A DNA stretch of 17,156 nt from IMG/VR virus record IMGVR_UViG_3300043447_000028, positions 1-17,156 of that record. One strand, given 5' to 3'. Both the position numbers and the translations under genes were made by a program. This document shows, in pieces, positions 2,720-17,156 of the stretch; within the stretch, counting starts at the first letter, position 1, and each line of letters begins with the position of its first letter. Under the pieces are notes generated by a model. It did not search any database, was not told where the DNA came from, and worked only from the letters and a program-made list of their open reading frames with translations. Origin of the DNA: a virus (taxonomy: Duplodnaviria; Heunggongvirae; Uroviricota; Caudoviricetes).

Positions 2720-3490
2720 ATGGCAACTCGTGCAGCAGCAAAGACAAGACCAATAGATAATGTGCAAGGTGAGCCTAAGACAAAAACAGTAAATAACCAT
2801 CTAAAATTAAGGATTGATGACTTAAAGACGTTTGAACCATTGACAGATAATCAGAAACTATTTTTTGATTCATACAAACGTGGTGATTATTTCGTGGCAC
2901 TTCATGGTGTCGCAGGGACAGGAAAAACCTTCTGTGCGCTTTACAAAGCGATTGAAGAAGTATTAGACAAATCAAATCCATTTGACAAGATTATCGTAGT
3001 TCGTTCTGCGGTGCAATCTCGTGAAATTGGACATCTTCCAGGCGATGTGAATGAGAAGATGGAAATTTATGAACAACCATATCGTCAGATATGCGAAACC
3101 TTGTTTGGTCGCAAAGACGCATGGGATAGATTAGAAGAACAAGGACATATCAGTTTTATTTCTACATCATTTATTCGTGGTATGTCATTTGATGATGCTA
3201 TCATCATTGTTGATGAAATGCAAAACTTGACTTATGAAGAGATTGATACCGTTATGACTCGTGTCGGTTATCGCTCTAAGATTATGTGGTGTGGTGACTA
3301 TCGCCAGACAGACTTGAATAAACGTAAAAGTGATGTTACAGGAATTCTCAAATTCTTTGACATCGCACAACACATGAGTGCTTTTACTCGTATCGAGTTT
3401 ACTGTTGACGACATCGTTCGATCTTCCTTAGTGAAGGACTATATTTTGGCTAAACTTAAATATGAGGACTACTATGAGAAGAAACAATGA
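2720..3490 (+). CDS. phoH: PhoH family ATPase
   Basis: Walker A 'GVAGTGKT', 'GHLPGD..EK', 'RGMSFDDAIIIVDEMQN', 'TRVG' and 'GDYRQTDL'. Confidence 0.95.
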   Translation: MATRAAAKTRPIDNVQGEPKTKTVNNHLKLRIDDLKTFEPLTDNQKLFFDSYKRGDYFVALHGVAGTGKTFCALYKAIEEVLDKSNPFDKIIVVRSAVQSREIGHLPGDVNEKMEIYEQPYRQICETLFGRKDAWDRLEEQGHISFISTSFIRGMSFDDAIIIVDEMQNLTYEEIDTVMTRVGYRSKIMWCGDYRQTDLNKRKSDVTGILKFFDIAQHMSAFTRIEFTVDDIVRSSLVKDYILAKLKYEDYYEKKQ

Positions 3491-12652: not shown

Positions 12653-12868
12653 ATGGGCAAGACTTACAATCAATCGAAGCGATTCGATGACGAATTTGGT
12701 GGGCGTTCAGGGAAACCTGCCAAACATAGCAACGGTAAAAAAACTGGTGGTATGAGAACGCTAAATAGTTATGTTGAAGAAGATTATGACATCAACGCCG
12801 ATGATTTCGACGATGAGTTTGAACTTGATGATGAAATTTCAATACAACATAATACTAATACAAAGTAA
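12653..12868 (+). CDS. Small protein with basic N-terminus and acidic C-terminus
   Basis: 'MGKTYNQSKRF...DDFDDEFELDDE'; sits between gp59 and gp32. Confidence 0.65.
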   Translation: MGKTYNQSKRFDDEFGGRSGKPAKHSNGKKTGGMRTLNSYVEEDYDINADDFDDEFELDDEISIQHNTNTK

Positions 12869-12888: not shown

Positions 12889-13800
12889 ATGGATATTCAA
12901 AAACTACGTGCTATGCGCAACTCTGATTTCGGTGCAATCTCTAACGCATTCGAAAAAGTAGCAAACCCTCAAACTGAAACCAAGTCATACAACGACGATC
13001 GCTTCTGGCGTCTCGAAGGTGACAAAGCTGGCAATGGTACTGCCACTTTGCGTTTCCTCCCACGTGTTGAAGGCGATGAACTCCCATGGGTTCGTATCTT
13101 CTCTCATGGTTTCCAAGGTCCAACTGGTAAATGGTACATCGAAAATTCTCTGACCACTCTTGGTGAGAATGACCCTGTCGGTGAACTCAACACGCAGCTA
13201 TGGAACTCTGGTTCTGAAGCCAACAAAGAAATTGCACGTAAGCAAAAGCGTAAGCTGAGTTTCACTGCTAACGTCTTGGTTGTGTCTGATCCAAAACACC
13301 CAGAGAACGAAGGCAAGGTATTCTTGTTCAAGTTCGGTAAGAAAATCTTCGACAAGATTATGGACAAAGCACGTCCTACATTCGAGGATGAGAAGCCAGT
13401 GAACGTGTTTGATTTGTGGGAAGGTGCTAACTTCAAGCTGCGCATGCGTAAGAAGGATGGATATGCAAACTATGACGAATCTGCGTTCATGGAGCCTTCA
13501 GCCGTTTCTGACGACGAAGACACTCTGTTGAAGATTGTTAATAGCCAGCACAAGCTGTCTGAATTCACTGATCGTAAGAACTTCAAGTCTTATGATGAGT
13601 TGAAGAAGAAGCTGAATGAAGTTTTGTCTGGTGATTCTTTTGCACCTAAGAGTGCAGCTGAAATTGCTGACGAACCACGTTCTGCGCCAGCACCTGCTTT
13701 CACTGCGAAAGCTGCACCACAACCTAAGTCTGTTGCCTCTAACCAAGACGACGATGAAGATGTGATGTCTTATTTCCAGAAGATTGCCAACGACGAGTAA
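12889..13800 (+). CDS. gp32: T4 gp32-like single-stranded DNA-binding protein
   Basis: 'DDRFW....DKAGNG.A..RFLP', 'HGFQGPTGKWYIENSLTTLG..DPV', 'PENEGKVFLFKFGKKIFDKI' and an acidic tail. Confidence 0.97.
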   Translation: MDIQKLRAMRNSDFGAISNAFEKVANPQTETKSYNDDRFWRLEGDKAGNGTATLRFLPRVEGDELPWVRIFSHGFQGPTGKWYIENSLTTLGENDPVGELNTQLWNSGSEANKEIARKQKRKLSFTANVLVVSDPKHPENEGKVFLFKFGKKIFDKIMDKARPTFEDEKPVNVFDLWEGANFKLRMRKKDGYANYDESAFMEPSAVSDDEDTLLKIVNSQHKLSEFTDRKNFKSYDELKKKLNEVLSGDSFAPKSAAEIADEPRSAPAPAFTAKAAPQPKSVASNQDDDEDVMSYFQKIANDE

Positions 13801-13846: not shown

Positions 13847-15475
13847 TTATGCGTATCGTGCTCGACTATCAACATATCTTGTAGCTGACGAATCTTGGTT
13901 ACGAATCGGAGCACGGATATTTTGATTTTGAGTAGTGTTGTTGTTGACAGGTGCATTAACAACAGTAGTGCCACCAGCTTGTTGAGTAGGAACAGCAGCT
14001 GCAGCATTGTCAGCAGATTTTTGATCAACTGTAGAAGCAGAAGTAGGTTTAGGTGCTTCTGGTGTTTTAGAACTACCACCTTCACTCTTAAATGGATAGA
14101 ATGGACCAATAGCCACTTCTTTACCGATAACAGGAATCTTGAATTTGATTTCTGGGATACCGATACTTTGAACAAGAGATAAGAAGCTATCTTTAAGAGA
14201 TGTAGCAAAGTCTACGAATGGTTTAACTACATGGTCATTAACCCACCCTGCCATATCACCGATAACTTCTTTGATGGCTTCTTTATCGAATAGACCGAAT
14301 GTCAAGAAGTCCACGATACCAGCAAGTCCAGCGATAAGTGCTTTACCGATGTCACCAGTTTCCATAAACTCATCGAATCCATCCATAATACCTTCGAATA
14401 GAGCACCAACTATCATACCGATGGCGAATACTTTACCAAGAGCCTTCAGAATGTTCTTAGGGTTAAACAGAGCCTTCAAACCTTTCATAAAACCATCACC
14501 AAGAAGACTTGTGATCCAGTCTAATAGACCATCAAACATTCCACCCTTCTTCTCTTCTGGTTTAACTTTTTCAGCATTACCCTTTCCACCAGCACGAGTA
14601 TTTTCTTCAATTTTATTAAGAAGTTCAGACATCTGCTCTTGAGTTCTAGCAGATTCCATTTGAGCTTCTTCGTTTTGAGTGCCTTCTGCTGCAGTCTGTG
14701 TTGGCGTCTTAGCAGCTGCTGGGTTTAGAGACATAACTGGAGTTGGACTGAATACATTGGTTGCCACATCAGTAGCACCATAAGCATCAGTTAACATATT
14801 CTTTTTCTCTAACAGAGCCTTACCTGCTTGCGTGTTAGACATCTGCTCATCATTTAGACCAGTCTTCTTCTTAAACTTTTCAATCTCAGCATCGTGTGCC
14901 TTGATGTCTTTAGATGCTTTGTATGCACGTTCAGCGTTTTCGTTACTATCATCACCACCAAGAGCACGTTGTTTTTCTCTAAACTTACTCTTTTCGATAG
15001 CTTTATTGAAGATACCACCGACGTTTAGAGCACCCATAACTGTGCGCCCTAACCCACCACCGAGACCTCCACCTAGCTTTTCCTTCAATCCTTCTTTCTT
15101 CTGCTTGAAAGATTCTTTCATTTGGCTAAACACGCTACCTTGTGTATCCATGAGTTTAGCCATCTCAGCGATATTTGCTGATTCGATACGCCACTCACGT
15201 TCATAGTCTTCTTGTTGTTTGGCTCTGCGCTTGGTAGTCTTCAGTTGATCTTCTAAAGTGGACAGAATTCTTTCTTGAAGATCTCCCCCACCACCAGAAG
15301 TCATCTGTCTGGTCTTTTCAGTATCCTTGGACAACTCTAGCAATTTCTTAATTGAAGAAAGTTCTCCGAGAGAAGCCTCTTGTGCAGCAAGTAACGCACT
15401 GAAACCCTCATTGGTAGAGGCAGTGTTTTGTCTAATACTTGAATTGACTGAACTGTTACTTGTTCTTTTTGGCAT
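13847..15475 (-). CDS. Probable tape-measure/baseplate-hub (gp29-like) protein
   Basis: 542 aa; helical coiled-coil N-terminus, Gly-rich amphipathic middle, low-complexity C-terminus; directly downstream of gp26/gp51-like genes. Confidence 0.6.
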   Translation of the reverse strand: MPKRTSNSSVNSSIRQNTASTNEGFSALLAAQEASLGELSSIKKLLELSKDTEKTRQMTSGGGGDLQERILSTLEDQLKTTKRRAKQQEDYEREWRIESANIAEMAKLMDTQGSVFSQMKESFKQKKEGLKEKLGGGLGGGLGRTVMGALNVGGIFNKAIEKSKFREKQRALGGDDSNENAERAYKASKDIKAHDAEIEKFKKKTGLNDEQMSNTQAGKALLEKKNMLTDAYGATDVATNVFSPTPVMSLNPAAAKTPTQTAAEGTQNEEAQMESARTQEQMSELLNKIEENTRAGGKGNAEKVKPEEKKGGMFDGLLDWITSLLGDGFMKGLKALFNPKNILKALGKVFAIGMIVGALFEGIMDGFDEFMETGDIGKALIAGLAGIVDFLTFGLFDKEAIKEVIGDMAGWVNDHVVKPFVDFATSLKDSFLSLVQSIGIPEIKFKIPVIGKEVAIGPFYPFKSEGGSSKTPEAPKPTSASTVDQKSADNAAAAVPTQQAGGTTVVNAPVNNNTTQNQNIRAPIRNQDSSATRYVDSRARYA

Positions 15476-15477
15476 CT

Positions 15478-15621
15478 TTATCTCTTCTTAGATTCTAATC
15501 GTTGTTTTTCTTCTTCTAGATACTGAATTAACATGTGCACATAAATTTCACGTTCAAACGGAATCATTGTTTCCAACTCTTCCAAAGAATACTTGTGGTA
15601 CTGCATCAGAGCGAAGTTCAT
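15478..15621 (-). CDS. gp51: gp51-like baseplate hub assembly protein (short ORF; possibly the C-terminal part of a frameshift fusion)
   Basis: 'NFALMQYHKYSLEELETMIPFEREIYV.ML.QYLEEE'. The first ATG is at 15621, but the frame stays open upstream through the end of gp26. Confidence 0.8.
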   Translation of the reverse strand: MNFALMQYHKYSLEELETMIPFEREIYVHMLIQYLEEEKQRLESKKR

Positions 15622-15659
15622 TTTATAGTAATTTACTAAACTCTCATGACACAGGTTTA

Positions 15660-16382
15660 TTAAAAAAAACTTTGCATGCCCTCCAGGGCTGCTGTGTGGT
15701 GTTTGCCACAAATAGGGCAATCATACTCAACCACTTTTCTAATCTTAGGCATAGTGGTAAAGAATGTTTGCAGATTCTTAAACTGCTCAGAAGTCAGATT
15801 ACCCAAAAACTGGAGAATGTCTTCTTTGCTCTGTTCTGCTGCGTAGTGTAGATCGTCACCTTGATAGATGATGTCAACACAGTCAGCGATAACATCGAAA
15901 ATAGCATCGATGTCTTCTGTATCTAATTGCTCTAGCTTAGCTAGAACTTTCATAGAAGGATATTTCATCACAACACCTACGTCATCGAACAATTCGATCT
16001 TGTTGGTATGTCCTTCTGGTTTCTCGACTTCTAACTTAGAGATATCGATAGAGATCTTTACCTTAGCCTTGTCGTTATCTTCACCATGATCCATATCACA
16101 TGGGAACAAAAGTTCAACAGTTTCACCGACAGACTTAGCACGAATCTGAGTAAAGATATACTCAATATCGAATATCGCTAATTTATCTACATCAATCTTA
16201 TCAGTTACGCATCCCTTAATAACACCCTTCAGAGTATCGACCATAACATTAAGGTCTTCTGATTGTTGGGCGATAAGAAGAGCCTTCTCTTCTTTCACTA
16301 GGAATGGTCTAAATTTTACATTCAATCCACTTGATGGCACTTTCAAACTATATGTCGGTGTTGCCATTACTGGTAAAGCCAT
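15660..16382 (-). CDS. gp26: gp26-like baseplate hub subunit/assembly protein
   Basis: 'VKFRPFLVKEEKALL', 'DIEYIF.QIRAKSVGE', 'MKYPS', 'FF.TMPK', 'CPICG' and 'LEGMQSFF'; AAGGAG RBS. Confidence 0.88.
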   Translation of the reverse strand: MALPVMATPTYSLKVPSSGLNVKFRPFLVKEEKALLIAQQSEDLNVMVDTLKGVIKGCVTDKIDVDKLAIFDIEYIFTQIRAKSVGETVELLFPCDMDHGEDNDKAKVKISIDISKLEVEKPEGHTNKIELFDDVGVVMKYPSMKVLAKLEQLDTEDIDAIFDVIADCVDIIYQGDDLHYAAEQSKEDILQFLGNLTSEQFKNLQTFFTTMPKIRKVVEYDCPICGKHHTAALEGMQSFF

Positions 16383-16384
16383 AA

Positions 16385-16801
16385 TTACTCTCCTTGCATT
16401 TTCTTGATCATTTTGTTTAATTCAGCAGTGCTACCCACGAAGATAGCATTGTTGGTCACTTTATCACCACCAGTCTTAGCTACACCCTTTGGTGCATCTA
16501 GCTTGGCTTTTTGCTGGTGAATGTCCATCAATTGTTGGTTCACATCAGCTAGTTGTTTCATTAAGTTGCCCACCACCTCGAAGGCACGTGGGTGTTCAGA
16601 TTGTTTTGCTACTTCTAACGCATGGGTCAAAGCAGCCTGTCCTGTAGTCAGCAACTCACGAAGATTGTTTCGAGTGACATCATAGTCGTTCTCGATTCTA
16701 TCATTAGACTCAGGAATTACTTCACCGTCTTTCGCAATCACTTCAGTCTTCGACATCGGAGCGACATCGAAGATCTCTGATAAAGAATCATCAAGTTTCA
16801 T
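16385..16801 (-). CDS. gp16: Terminase small subunit (T4 gp16-like)
   Basis: 'NDYD.TRNNL', 'SEHPRAFEV', 'LADVNQQLMD' and 'TNNAIFVGSTAEL'. Confidence 0.88.
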   Translation of the reverse strand: MKLDDSLSEIFDVAPMSKTEVIAKDGEVIPESNDRIENDYDVTRNNLRELLTTGQAALTHALEVAKQSEHPRAFEVVGNLMKQLADVNQQLMDIHQQKAKLDAPKGVAKTGGDKVTNNAIFVGSTAELNKMIKKMQGE

Positions 16802-16806
16802 ATTGT

Positions 16807-17156
16807 TTAATCGTTTCTAGTGTTTCTAGTTGGTGGGTCACTTGGATCAAGTCCGAGTGGCGCTGCTGCAACTGGAGTTGGGGTTGACATAACTGGTCTT
16901 GGGATTGGTGCTGGCGCAGATACGCTAGGTGCTGGAGAGATGCTTGGTGTTGTTGCTGCACCGCCATTGTTTGCTCCTGCGATCTTTTCTTGTGTACGAC
17001 CCATTGCTGCGATACCTAGAACAGCACCCATAGCTACGTGGAATAAACCTGCACCTTGTAGAGTTAGTGGTTGCCATTGTGTAATTGGTTGCTTGAGTAA
17101 AGTTTGAGCTAAACTCCAGAGAATAGGGAACACTATAAAGTCAGCTGTACAAGTAG
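16807..17156 (-). CDS. 3-TM holin (GTA_holin_3TM-like), 5' truncated by window edge
   Basis: Frame is open to the edge (..CTADFIVFPILW..). 'WQPLTLQGAGLFHVAMGAVLG...GRTQEK' followed by a Pro/Ala-rich tail. Confidence 0.7.
   Translation of the reverse strand, partial: TCTADFIVFPILWSLAQTLLKQPITQWQPLTLQGAGLFHVAMGAVLGIAAMGRTQEKIAGANNGGAATTPSISPAPSVSAPAPIPRPVMSTPTPVAAAPLGLDPSDPPTRNTRND

What the first reader, a model, noticed from the sequence alone, without database searches (positions are those of the whole stretch)
15478..15670. Predicted -1 programmed frameshift fusing gp26-like and gp51-like upstream of the tape-measure-like gene
Seen in sequence: the minus strand reads ATG CAA AGT TTT TTT TAA, giving a U-UUU-UUU slippery heptamer (plus-strand A-run, 15663-15669) right before the gp26 stop. 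The -1 frame is open there and continues LINLCHESLVNYYK into the 47-aa gp51-like ORF, whose own ATG has no clear SD. The fusion would be 301 aa, against 240 aa unshifted. Established: long-tailed phages use a -1 frameshift in the tail-chaperone pair just upstream of the tape-measure gene (lambda G/GT). From memory, to be verified: T4 gp51 is one protein with a similar N-terminal 'FKPF' region and a C-terminal 'YSL...MIP.ER' region. Inference: this is a G/GT-like recoding system in T4-like phages hidden by split annotation.
Basis: partly seen in the sequence, partly recalled or inferred. Interest (0 to 1): 0.8.

Follow-up and report, generated by a model that had tools for sequence, protein, structure and literature searches.

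The report
Frameshift in T4-like tail chaperone gene
An uncultivated T4-like phage very probably makes a short and a long version of its tail-assembly chaperone by letting ribosomes slip back one base on a run of U's, a signal conserved across many related phages; this kind of recoding was already published in 2022, so it is a clean example and not a discovery.

Summary
On the minus strand the gp26-like ORF (240 aa) ends AGT TTT TTT TAA. The -1 frame is open across the U UUU UUU heptamer (15669..15663) and adds 61 aa, giving a 301-aa product.

It is not chance or a sequencing error. Of 93 related loci (19-97% protein identity), 91 keep an in-register T TTT TTN heptamer, held at synonymous positions. 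All have the gp51-like ORF in the -1 frame. Its conserved residues begin right after the heptamer, upstream of any conserved start codon.

An SD-like GAGG/GGAGG ends 10 nt upstream of the heptamer in 66 of 91 loci. The 0-frame stop follows within one codon in 90 of 91.

T4 gp51 aligns without gaps across the predicted junction, and T4 gp26 ends there. Eight lineages with a separate full-length gene 51 all lack the heptamer.

The N-terminal domain of the model best matches the HK97 tail assembly chaperone. A tape-measure-like gene follows.

The kind is already published (Vladimirov, Gautam and Davidson 2022, Virology 566:9), though every public record I viewed still splits the genes. Interest is low to moderate.

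The parts
15660..16382 (-). gp26-like gene, the short form of the chaperone (TAC-N), 240 aa, ending ...LEGMQSFF*
   Evidence: PF12322 T4_baseplate, E 3e-61. phrog_150, E 9e-68, profile positions 5-232 of 282. The AF2 model has pLDDT 88. Residues 1-90 best match HK97 TAC 2ob9, Z 7.6.
15680..15684 (-). SD-like GGAGG inside the Leu-Glu-Gly codons, ending 10 nt upstream of the heptamer. Candidate 5' stimulator of the dnaX type.
   Evidence: GGAGG or GAGG ends 10 nt upstream of the heptamer in 66 of 91 loci. The Glu codon there is GAG in 66 of 76 loci, against 27% GAG elsewhere in the same genes. At cluster level the count is 18 GAG to 5 GAA, p = 5e-7. Function is inferred, not shown.
15663..15669 (-). 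Slippery heptamer U UUU UUU in X XXY YYZ register (Ser-Phe-Phe codons AGU UUU UUU)
   Evidence: Sequence. In-register T TTT TTN is present in 91 of 93 related loci. The preceding codon always ends in T (61% expected) and the first Phe codon is always TTT (70% expected). It is absent in 8 of 8 lineages with a separate full-length gene 51.
15660..15662 (-). 0-frame stop UAA directly after the heptamer (possible 'shifty stop' stimulator)
   Evidence: The stop lies 0 codons (27 loci) or 1 codon (63 loci) after the heptamer, in 90 of 91 loci.
15478..15663 (-). -1 frame extension: 61 aa plus stop, LINLCHESLVNYYKMNFALMQYHKYSLEELETMIPFEREIY.... It is homologous to the C-terminal ~60 aa of T4 gp51. Joined to residues 1-240 it gives the 301-aa long form (TAC-NC).
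   Evidence: phrog_634, E 1.7e-26, and phrog_150 profile positions 228-276. BLAST to T4 gp51 residues 207-249. Gap-free alignment across the junction. Residues L9, Y12, Y13, N16 and F17 are conserved from the slip point on.
15478..15621 (-). The 47-aa 'gp51-like' ORF as it would be called from its own ATG. Probably an annotation artefact of the split.
   Evidence: No SD-like sequence before this ATG. The first ATG sits at variable positions among relatives, and 82 of 88 loci lack an SD there.
13847..15475 (-). 542-aa tape-measure-like gene immediately downstream
   Evidence: No Pfam or PHROG hit. Weak BLAST match to the putative tape measure of HTVC008M, E 0.005. Language-model neighbours are 'tail length tape measure' clusters, including one with PF25671 T4_Tape_measure, score 0.95. 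Relatives have a comparable gene in the same position.

Best explanation
The locus encodes the tail assembly chaperone pair of a T4-like myovirus from one overlapping gene pair.

Most ribosomes translate the gp26-like ORF and stop at UAA, giving the 240-aa short form. A fraction slip back one base while the two tRNA-Phe sit on U UUU UUU. They then read UUA AUA AAC CUG... and add 61 residues, giving a 301-aa long form with the junction ...QSFF/LINL....

This long form is the equivalent of T4 gp51, and the short form is the equivalent of T4 gp26.

The likely stimulators are an internal Shine-Dalgarno-like GGAGG 10 nt upstream and the stop codon directly after the heptamer. No conserved 3' RNA structure exists in this phage's own clade.

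By analogy with lambda G/GT, both forms would coat the tape-measure protein through the shared N-terminal chaperone domain, and the extension of the rarer long form would recruit a tail-tube or hub partner.

Shown here: the sequence signals, their conservation, the homology to T4 gp26 and gp51, and the chaperone-like fold.

Inferred: that slippage occurs, its rate, the role of the SD-like element and the stop, and all binding partners.
For: 1. Anatomy of the site.

2. phrog_150 is one profile that the 0-frame ORF matches at positions 5-232 and the -1 ORF continues at 228-276. T4 gp51 matches it end to end (13-280) and T4 gp26 matches only 14-235.

3. T4 gp51 aligns gap-free across the predicted junction, and T4 gp26 ends there.

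4. 91 of 93 loci from Kyanoviridae, pelagiphage, Schizotequatrovirus, Cinqassovirus, Pootjesviridae, Chakrabartyvirus and Menderavirus keep T TTT TTN in register. The synonymous positions are fixed. The null probability is about 2e-12 over 32 clusters.

5. Negative control: 0 of 8 lineages with a separate full-length gene 51 have the heptamer.

6. There is no conserved start for the -1 ORF, and conserved residues lie upstream of most first ATGs. Aeromonas phage Ah1 has the -1 ORF but no annotated gene there.

7. The T-run is only 6 bases long in 59 of 91 loci, too short for efficient RNA-polymerase slippage, while the codon register is constant.

8. The SD-like GAGG is enriched at 10 nt upstream.

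9. The N-terminal domain best matches HK97 TAC 2ob9 (Z 7.6), 3fgx (7.5) and YqbN 3klu (7.2), ahead of unrelated rows at 4.1 or below. Foldseek gives probability 0.89 for 2ob9_B.

10. The literature describes short and long TAC forms and polyT slippery sites in T4-like phages.
Against: There is no direct evidence that the long form is made, neither protein nor reporter data. No reads or RNA data could be examined.

The window's own clade has no conserved 3' stimulatory structure, so efficiency may be low.

The 8-T run in this phage is long enough that some RNA-polymerase slippage cannot be excluded.

In 22 of 88 relatives an ATG lies 1-3 codons after the heptamer, often as TAATG or TGATG. That arrangement would also allow coupled re-initiation, and it gives a -1 frame relation by itself.

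Two Ackermannviridae-type loci keep the -1 ORF without a canonical heptamer.

The structural match has Z below 8, which the tool warns can reflect a common arrangement only.
Confidence: 0.82

Rival explanations
1. Transcriptional slippage. RNA polymerase stutters on the T/A run and adds one U to a fraction of the mRNAs, so standard translation of those mRNAs yields the same 301-aa fusion.
For: The window has 8 consecutive T's, as do 25 of 91 relatives. One inserted U would put the ORFs in frame.
Against: 59 of 91 loci have only 6 T's and 7 have 7. What is conserved is the X XXY YYZ codon register, the T at the third position of the preceding codon, the SD-like element 10 nt upstream and the nearby stop. 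All of these are features of ribosomal slippage, not polymerase slippage. That efficient bacterial transcriptional slippage needs runs of about 9 or more is from my own knowledge, not tested here.
Confidence: 0.07
2. Two separate proteins. The small gp51-like ORF is translated on its own, from ATG 15621 or by termination-reinitiation after the gp26-like stop, and acts as a free ~5-7 kDa peptide. No fusion is made.
For: Public annotation treats the two as separate genes in every record viewed. Some distant lineages have an ATG overlapping the stop as TAATG or TGATG. A -1 frame relation is also what such overlaps produce.
Against: The window's ATG has no SD and lies 14 codons after the slip point, downstream of conserved residues. 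The first ATG varies from 1 to 32 codons after the slip, and 82 of 88 loci lack an SD. This reading does not explain the fixed synonymous positions of the heptamer, its loss where gene 51 is full length, or the gap-free match of T4 gp51 across the junction.
Confidence: 0.08
3. Artefact or decay. The T-run length is a homopolymer sequencing error in what is really one ORF, or the gene is a broken fusion.
For: Homopolymers are error-prone. One extra T would fuse the frames.
Against: The same stop-containing arrangement is present in 93 of 93 independent loci, including cultured, finished genomes (HTVC008M has the identical AGT TTT TTT TAA). None of the 93 is fused in frame.
Confidence: 0.01

Closest known systems
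T4 gp26 / gp51, described as the tail assembly chaperones of T4-like phages (Vladimirov, Gautam and Davidson 2022, Virology 566:9-15; known to me only through its title and citations in PMC10885494 and PMC12846349)
   Same: Same protein family (PF12322, phrog_150). The short form equals gp26. The long form equals gp51, that is, a gp26-like domain plus a ~60-aa C-terminal extension. The junction aligns gap-free.
   Different: T4 and 7 other Straboviridae lineages encode the two forms as two separate, divergently transcribed genes without a slippery site. This phage has one gene plus a -1 ORF and needs recoding to make the long form.
Lambda G/GT and the conserved -1 frameshift of long-tailed phage tail assembly chaperones (Xu, Hendrix and Duda 2004, Mol Cell 16:11; cited)
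   Same: Two overlapping ORFs, the second in the -1 frame. A canonical heptamer lies near the end of the first ORF. The pair sits directly upstream of the tape-measure-like gene. The N-terminal fold resembles a TAC.
   Different: No detectable sequence similarity. The short form is about twice as long (240 aa, with a second domain and a CxxC pair). In T4 genetics these proteins are tied to baseplate-hub assembly (own knowledge). In this window the upstream neighbour is a small-terminase-like gene, not the tube gene.
E. coli dnaX -1 frameshift (A AAA AAG with an internal SD-like stimulator about 10 nt upstream; own knowledge of Larsen et al. 1994)
   Same: An SD-like GGAGG ends 10 nt 5' of the heptamer, with synonymous-site preference for it.
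   Different: dnaX also uses a strong 3' stem-loop, and its shifted frame stops at once, giving a shorter product. Here the shift gives a longer product, and the window's clade has no conserved 3' structure.
T7 gene 10A/10B -1 frameshift on a U-rich site (mentioned with T4-like TAC-N genes in PMC12846349)
   Same: A poly-U slippery site near the end of the ORF extends a structural-module protein by a short C-terminal tail.
   Different: Different protein (capsid) and a different heptamer context.

Membership tests
T4_baseplate family (Pfam PF12322 / phrog_150; T4 gp26 and gp51) | Profile match above the curated cut-off over the whole domain | tested here: met
   207.3 bits against a cut-off of 24.5, residues 9-240. 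phrog_150 E 9e-68.
T4_baseplate family (Pfam PF12322 / phrog_150; T4 gp26 and gp51) | C-terminal extension homologous to the gp51 C-terminus, continuing the same profile | tested here: met
   The -1 ORF matches phrog_150 positions 228-276 and phrog_634. BLAST to T4 gp51 residues 207-249. Gap-free junction.
Frameshifted tail assembly chaperone pair (lambda G/GT type) | Second ORF overlaps the end of the first in the -1 frame and lacks its own conserved start | tested here: met
   93 of 93 loci are in the -1 frame. The first ATG is variable, and 82 of 88 loci have no SD.
Frameshifted tail assembly chaperone pair (lambda G/GT type) | Canonical X XXY YYZ heptamer in the 0-frame register, conserved among relatives | tested here: met
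   U UUU UUU in the window. 91 of 93 loci carry it, with synonymous positions fixed. It is lost in 8 of 8 two-gene lineages.
Frameshifted tail assembly chaperone pair (lambda G/GT type) | Located immediately upstream of the tape-measure gene | tested here: inconclusive
   A 542-aa gene follows 2 nt after the -1 ORF. Its tape-measure identity rests on position, composition, E 0.005 to the putative tape measure of HTVC008M and language-model neighbours including a PF25671 cluster. It has no Pfam or PHROG hit.
Frameshifted tail assembly chaperone pair (lambda G/GT type) | Tail-assembly-chaperone fold | tested here: inconclusive
   Residues 1-90 match HK97 TAC 2ob9 (Z 7.6, rmsd 4.0, 84 aligned), 3fgx (7.5) and YqbN 3klu (7.2). 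These stand above the next unrelated rows at 4.1 or below. However, Z is below the level of 8 that the tool calls safe. Foldseek gives probability 0.89 at E 0.66. A profile search of PDB sequences found nothing.
Frameshifted tail assembly chaperone pair (lambda G/GT type) | Two protein products in a fixed ratio, both needed for tail assembly and absent from virions | not testable with these tools
   Needs proteomics, reporters or genetics.
dnaX-type stimulation by an internal SD | SD-like sequence about 10 nt 5' of the shift site that raises -1 slippage | tested here: inconclusive
   The sequence and spacing are present and preferred at a synonymous site. The effect on slippage was not tested.

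The most novel reading that the evidence does not exclude
The set of stimulators may be undescribed. One component would be an internal SD-like GGAGG fixed 10 nt upstream plus a stop codon 0-1 codons after the heptamer, shared across families. The other would be lineage-specific 3' hairpins that appear in the cyanophage/pelagiphage clade in different registers but are absent in this phage's clade. If so, different T4-like lineages tune the short:long chaperone ratio by different means. A further possibility is that lineages with a TAATG or TGATG overlap make a third product, the free C-peptide. I could not read the 2022 paper, so I cannot tell how much of this it already covers.
Probability: 0.3. 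Interest if true: 0.45.

Novelty: new member of a known kind. Interest (0 to 1): 0.3.

Why it matters
The result corrects annotation. The '47-aa gp51-like' gene of this phage, and the small 'baseplate hub assembly catalyst' genes of cyanophages, pelagiphages, KVP40-like and Rhizobium phages, are most likely the -1 frame tail of the chaperone gene. A joined CDS should be annotated in their place.

It also explains why some T4-like phages seemed to lack gp51. Sullivan et al. 2010 noted the ~80% shorter cyanophage gp51 and its absence in Aeh1.

Finally, it gives a clean natural experiment: the slippery site is kept wherever one gene must make both forms, and lost wherever a separate long-form gene exists. 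For specialists the principle is already in print, so the added value is the quantified conservation and the candidate stimulators.

Tried and rejected
- Near-identical DNA search in the phage collection found nothing.
- The Rfam scan of 15400-15800 gave only a chance miRNA hit at E 0.11.
- A 3' stimulatory structure in the window: an 83-nt fold gave z -1.95. The stem is not kept in relatives, RNAalifold gave -0.8 kcal/mol on 17 close relatives, and the synonymous-shuffle z for the window is -0.09.
- A single common hairpin in the cyanophage clade: RNAalifold found none on 58 sequences, although many individual loci fold well.
- A profile search of PDB sequences found no relative. Foldseek against PDB gave no hit at E <= 0.001.
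- BLAST of the 542-aa protein against T4 gp29 and the KVP40 neighbour gave nothing significant.
- A T4 late-promoter reading of TATAAA just before ATG 15621 was considered and rejected. It comes from the conserved Tyr-Tyr-Lys codons, does not match TATAAATA, and a transcript from it would start at or after the ATG.
- Vladimirov et al. 2022 is not held and could not be read. Literature searches for gp26/gp51 with frameshift or slippery found no other paper.
- A search for diverse T4-type gp26 loci in IMG/VR returned only near-identical ones, so the negative control used GenBank records.
- No complex prediction was run, because no binding claim here goes beyond analogy.

Full report
**What is there.** The window comes from an uncultivated T4-like myovirus, an 81-kb IMG/VR fragment about 49% complete. 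It carries a gp32-like gene on the plus strand (PF08804). On the minus strand it carries, in order:
- a gp16-like small terminase gene (16801..16385; phrog_445);
- a 240-aa gp26-like gene (16382..15660; PF12322, 207 bits; phrog_150, E 9e-68);
- an 80-codon open -1 frame (15720..15478);
- a 542-aa gene (15475..13847).

The gp26-like ORF ends AGT TTT TTT TAA. The T-run has 8 bases (15669..15662). Its first seven bases are a U UUU UUU heptamer in X XXY YYZ register, and the stop follows directly. After a -1 slip the next codons are TTA ATA AAC CTG.... This gives SFF/LINLCHESLVNYYKMNF... and a 301-aa product.

**Homology of the two frames.** One PHROG profile (phrog_150, 282 positions) is matched by the 0-frame ORF at positions 5-232 and continued by the -1 ORF at 228-276. 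The -1 ORF also matches phrog_634, 'baseplate hub assembly catalyst'. T4 gp51 (249 aa) matches phrog_150 from 13 to 280, while T4 gp26 (208 aa) matches only 14-235. So T4 has a short and a long paralogue, encoded by two divergently transcribed genes. In a multiple alignment T4 gp51 runs gap-free across the predicted junction (...VFKLLVNPDEIFTFY... against ...FFLINLCHESLVNYY...), and T4 gp26 ends there (...EFFELL*).

**Comparative test.** I collected 93 loci:
- the window itself;
- 80 IMG/VR contigs at 38-97% protein identity;
- 12 GenBank phages: S-PM2, HTVC008M, Syn1, pf16, Rhizobium RHph_I9, Vibrio K476, Aeromonas Ah1, KVP40, Stenotrophomonas Yut3, Det7, Agrobacterium Atu_ph04 and Pseudoalteromonas XG4.

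In all 93 the gp51-like ORF lies in the -1 frame and is open across the end of the gp26-like ORF. In 91 an in-register T TTT TTN heptamer lies in the last codons: TTC in 57, TTT in 32, and G and A once each.

The heptamer is held at synonymous positions:
- The codon before it is AGT, TCT, AAT, GAT or CGT and always ends in T. T-ending codons for the same residues make up 61% elsewhere in these genes.
- The first Phe codon is always TTT, against 70% elsewhere.
- Counting only clusters at 60% identity, 32 of 34 carry the heptamer. The null probability is about 2e-12.

The 0-frame stop follows 0 or 1 codon after the heptamer in 90 of 91 loci.

**Negative control.** In T4 and seven other Straboviridae lineages that have a separate full-length gene 51 (Mosigvirus, Jiaodavirus, Dhakavirus, Lazarusvirus, PSTCR6, Krischvirus, Biquartavirus), none has the heptamer at the corresponding place. 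Those gp26 genes use TTC TTT, TTT GTT, TTC CTT and so on, and run on for 3-4 more codons. The slippery site is therefore kept only where one gene must supply both forms.

**Against an independent start.** The -1 extension is 56-69 aa long. Its conserved columns (L9, Y12, Y13, N16, F17, then YSL..E.M.P.ER..Y) begin right after the slip point. The first in-frame ATG lies 1-3 codons after the slip in 22 loci, 14 in 16 loci (the window among them), 18-19 in 41 loci and 32 in 2 loci. In 82 of 88 loci it has no SD-like sequence. Aeromonas phage Ah1 has the heptamer and the conserved -1 ORF but no annotated gene there. This fits the report that gp51 seemed 'missing' in Aeh1 and is only ~20% as long in cyanophages (PMC3037559).

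**Mechanism.** The T-run length is 6 in 59 loci, 7 in 7 loci and 8 in 25 loci. The constant features are the codon register and its context, not the run length. This favours ribosomal over RNA-polymerase slippage, although the window's 8-T run leaves some room for the latter.

An SD-like GAGG or GGAGG ends exactly 10 nt upstream of the heptamer in 66 of 91 loci. The Glu codon that creates it is GAG in 66 of 76 loci, against 27% GAG elsewhere in the same genes. At cluster level the count is 18 to 5, p = 5e-7. In the window it lies at 15684..15680. This spacing matches what I recall for the dnaX stimulator (own knowledge). A stop codon next to a slippery run is also a known enhancer ('shifty stop', own knowledge).

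A conserved 3' structure is absent in the window's clade:
- RNAalifold gives -0.8 kcal/mol.
- The synonymous-shuffle z is -0.09 for the window and -0.59 for its clade.

In the cyanophage/pelagiphage clade, by contrast, the 48 nt after the heptamer fold better than synonymous shuffles (mean z -1.63 against -0.26 for control segments, p = 1.4e-7). The hairpins start 5-9 nt downstream but sit in different registers, so no single consensus emerges.

**Function.** An AlphaFold model of the 240-aa protein is confident (pLDDT 88, pTM 0.82). Its first ~90 residues best match the HK97 tail assembly chaperone (2ob9, Z 7.6), 3fgx (Z 7.5) and B. subtilis YqbN (3klu, Z 7.2). The next unrelated rows score 4.1 or below. 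Lactococcal phage p2 ORF12 appears at Z 2.9. Foldseek also picks 2ob9_B with probability 0.89. The Z values are moderate, so I treat the fold as supportive, not conclusive.

The downstream 542-aa protein has no family hit. It does sit where relatives have a putative tape measure, is weakly similar to that of HTVC008M (E 0.005), and has tape-measure clusters as its language-model neighbours. The binding roles of the two forms are inferred from lambda G/GT only.

**What is known.** PRFect (PMC10885494) cites Vladimirov, Gautam and Davidson 2022 for T4-like phages that carry one short TAC gene and one long fused gene instead of frameshifting. PMC12846349 cites the same paper for polyT slippery sequences in TAC-N genes of T4-like phages. 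The KVP40 GenBank note already links the small ORF to the C-terminal 40 aa of T4 gp51. I could not read the 2022 paper. That its genes are 26 and 51 is my inference from the match. All annotated public records I viewed still list two separate genes and none has a joined CDS.

**Verdict.** This is a new member of a published kind. The quantified synonymous-site conservation, the two-gene negative control, the SD-like element and the clade-specific hairpins are useful additions whose novelty I cannot judge without the primary paper.

Noticed in passing
L091 (Salmonella phage Det7) 3290-3470; L087 (Vibrio phage K476) 3205-3410: Two Ackermannviridae-type loci keep a gp51-like ORF (MPWHL motif) in the -1 frame but have no canonical heptamer, only ATT TTC and CTT TTT. 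K476 has TAATGATG at the junction. They may use single-tRNA slippage on U UUY or re-initiation.
   Followed up: partly
L089 (KVP40) ~3325-3335; L086, L090, L092, L093 at the gp26 stop: Distant lineages combine the T TTT TTY heptamer with an ATG overlapping the stop one codon later (TAATG or TGATG). A free C-terminal peptide might therefore be made in addition to the fusion.
   Followed up: partly
L088 (Aeromonas phage Ah1) 3205-3390: A conserved -1 ORF (...PFERAIY...) after the gp26 gene is not annotated at all in the RefSeq record. This probably explains reports that some Aeromonas T4-like phages lack gp51.
   Followed up: partly
L001 (S-PM2) 3221-3255 and many cyanophage loci (for example L041, L062, L084, L054): Strong hairpins of 9-14 bp start 5-9 nt after the heptamer. 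They are built from different sequences and registers in different sub-clades and are more stable than synonymous shuffles.
   Followed up: partly
window 16385-16801 (-) and 12889-13800 (+): The gene order differs from relatives. Here a gp16-like small terminase gene, not a tail-tube or gp54-like gene, lies directly upstream of the chaperone gene. A gp32-like gene converges on the tape-measure-like gene.
   Followed up: no
window, whole: Runs of 7 or more T/A are under-represented: 3 overlapping hits at 2 sites against 10.5 expected from shuffles. The second site is at 12737-12743.
   Followed up: no
window 16807-17154 (-): An ORF open at the window's end encodes a hydrophobic N-terminal part followed by an Ala/Pro/Ser/Thr-rich low-complexity tail. 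It was not examined.
   Followed up: no
L106 (Klebsiella phage KPV15) 380-1137: In this T4-type record the gene 51 position is annotated as two short 'baseplate protein' CDSs (324 and 363 nt) instead of one ~750-nt gene. This is possibly a frameshift or sequencing error in that record.
   Followed up: no
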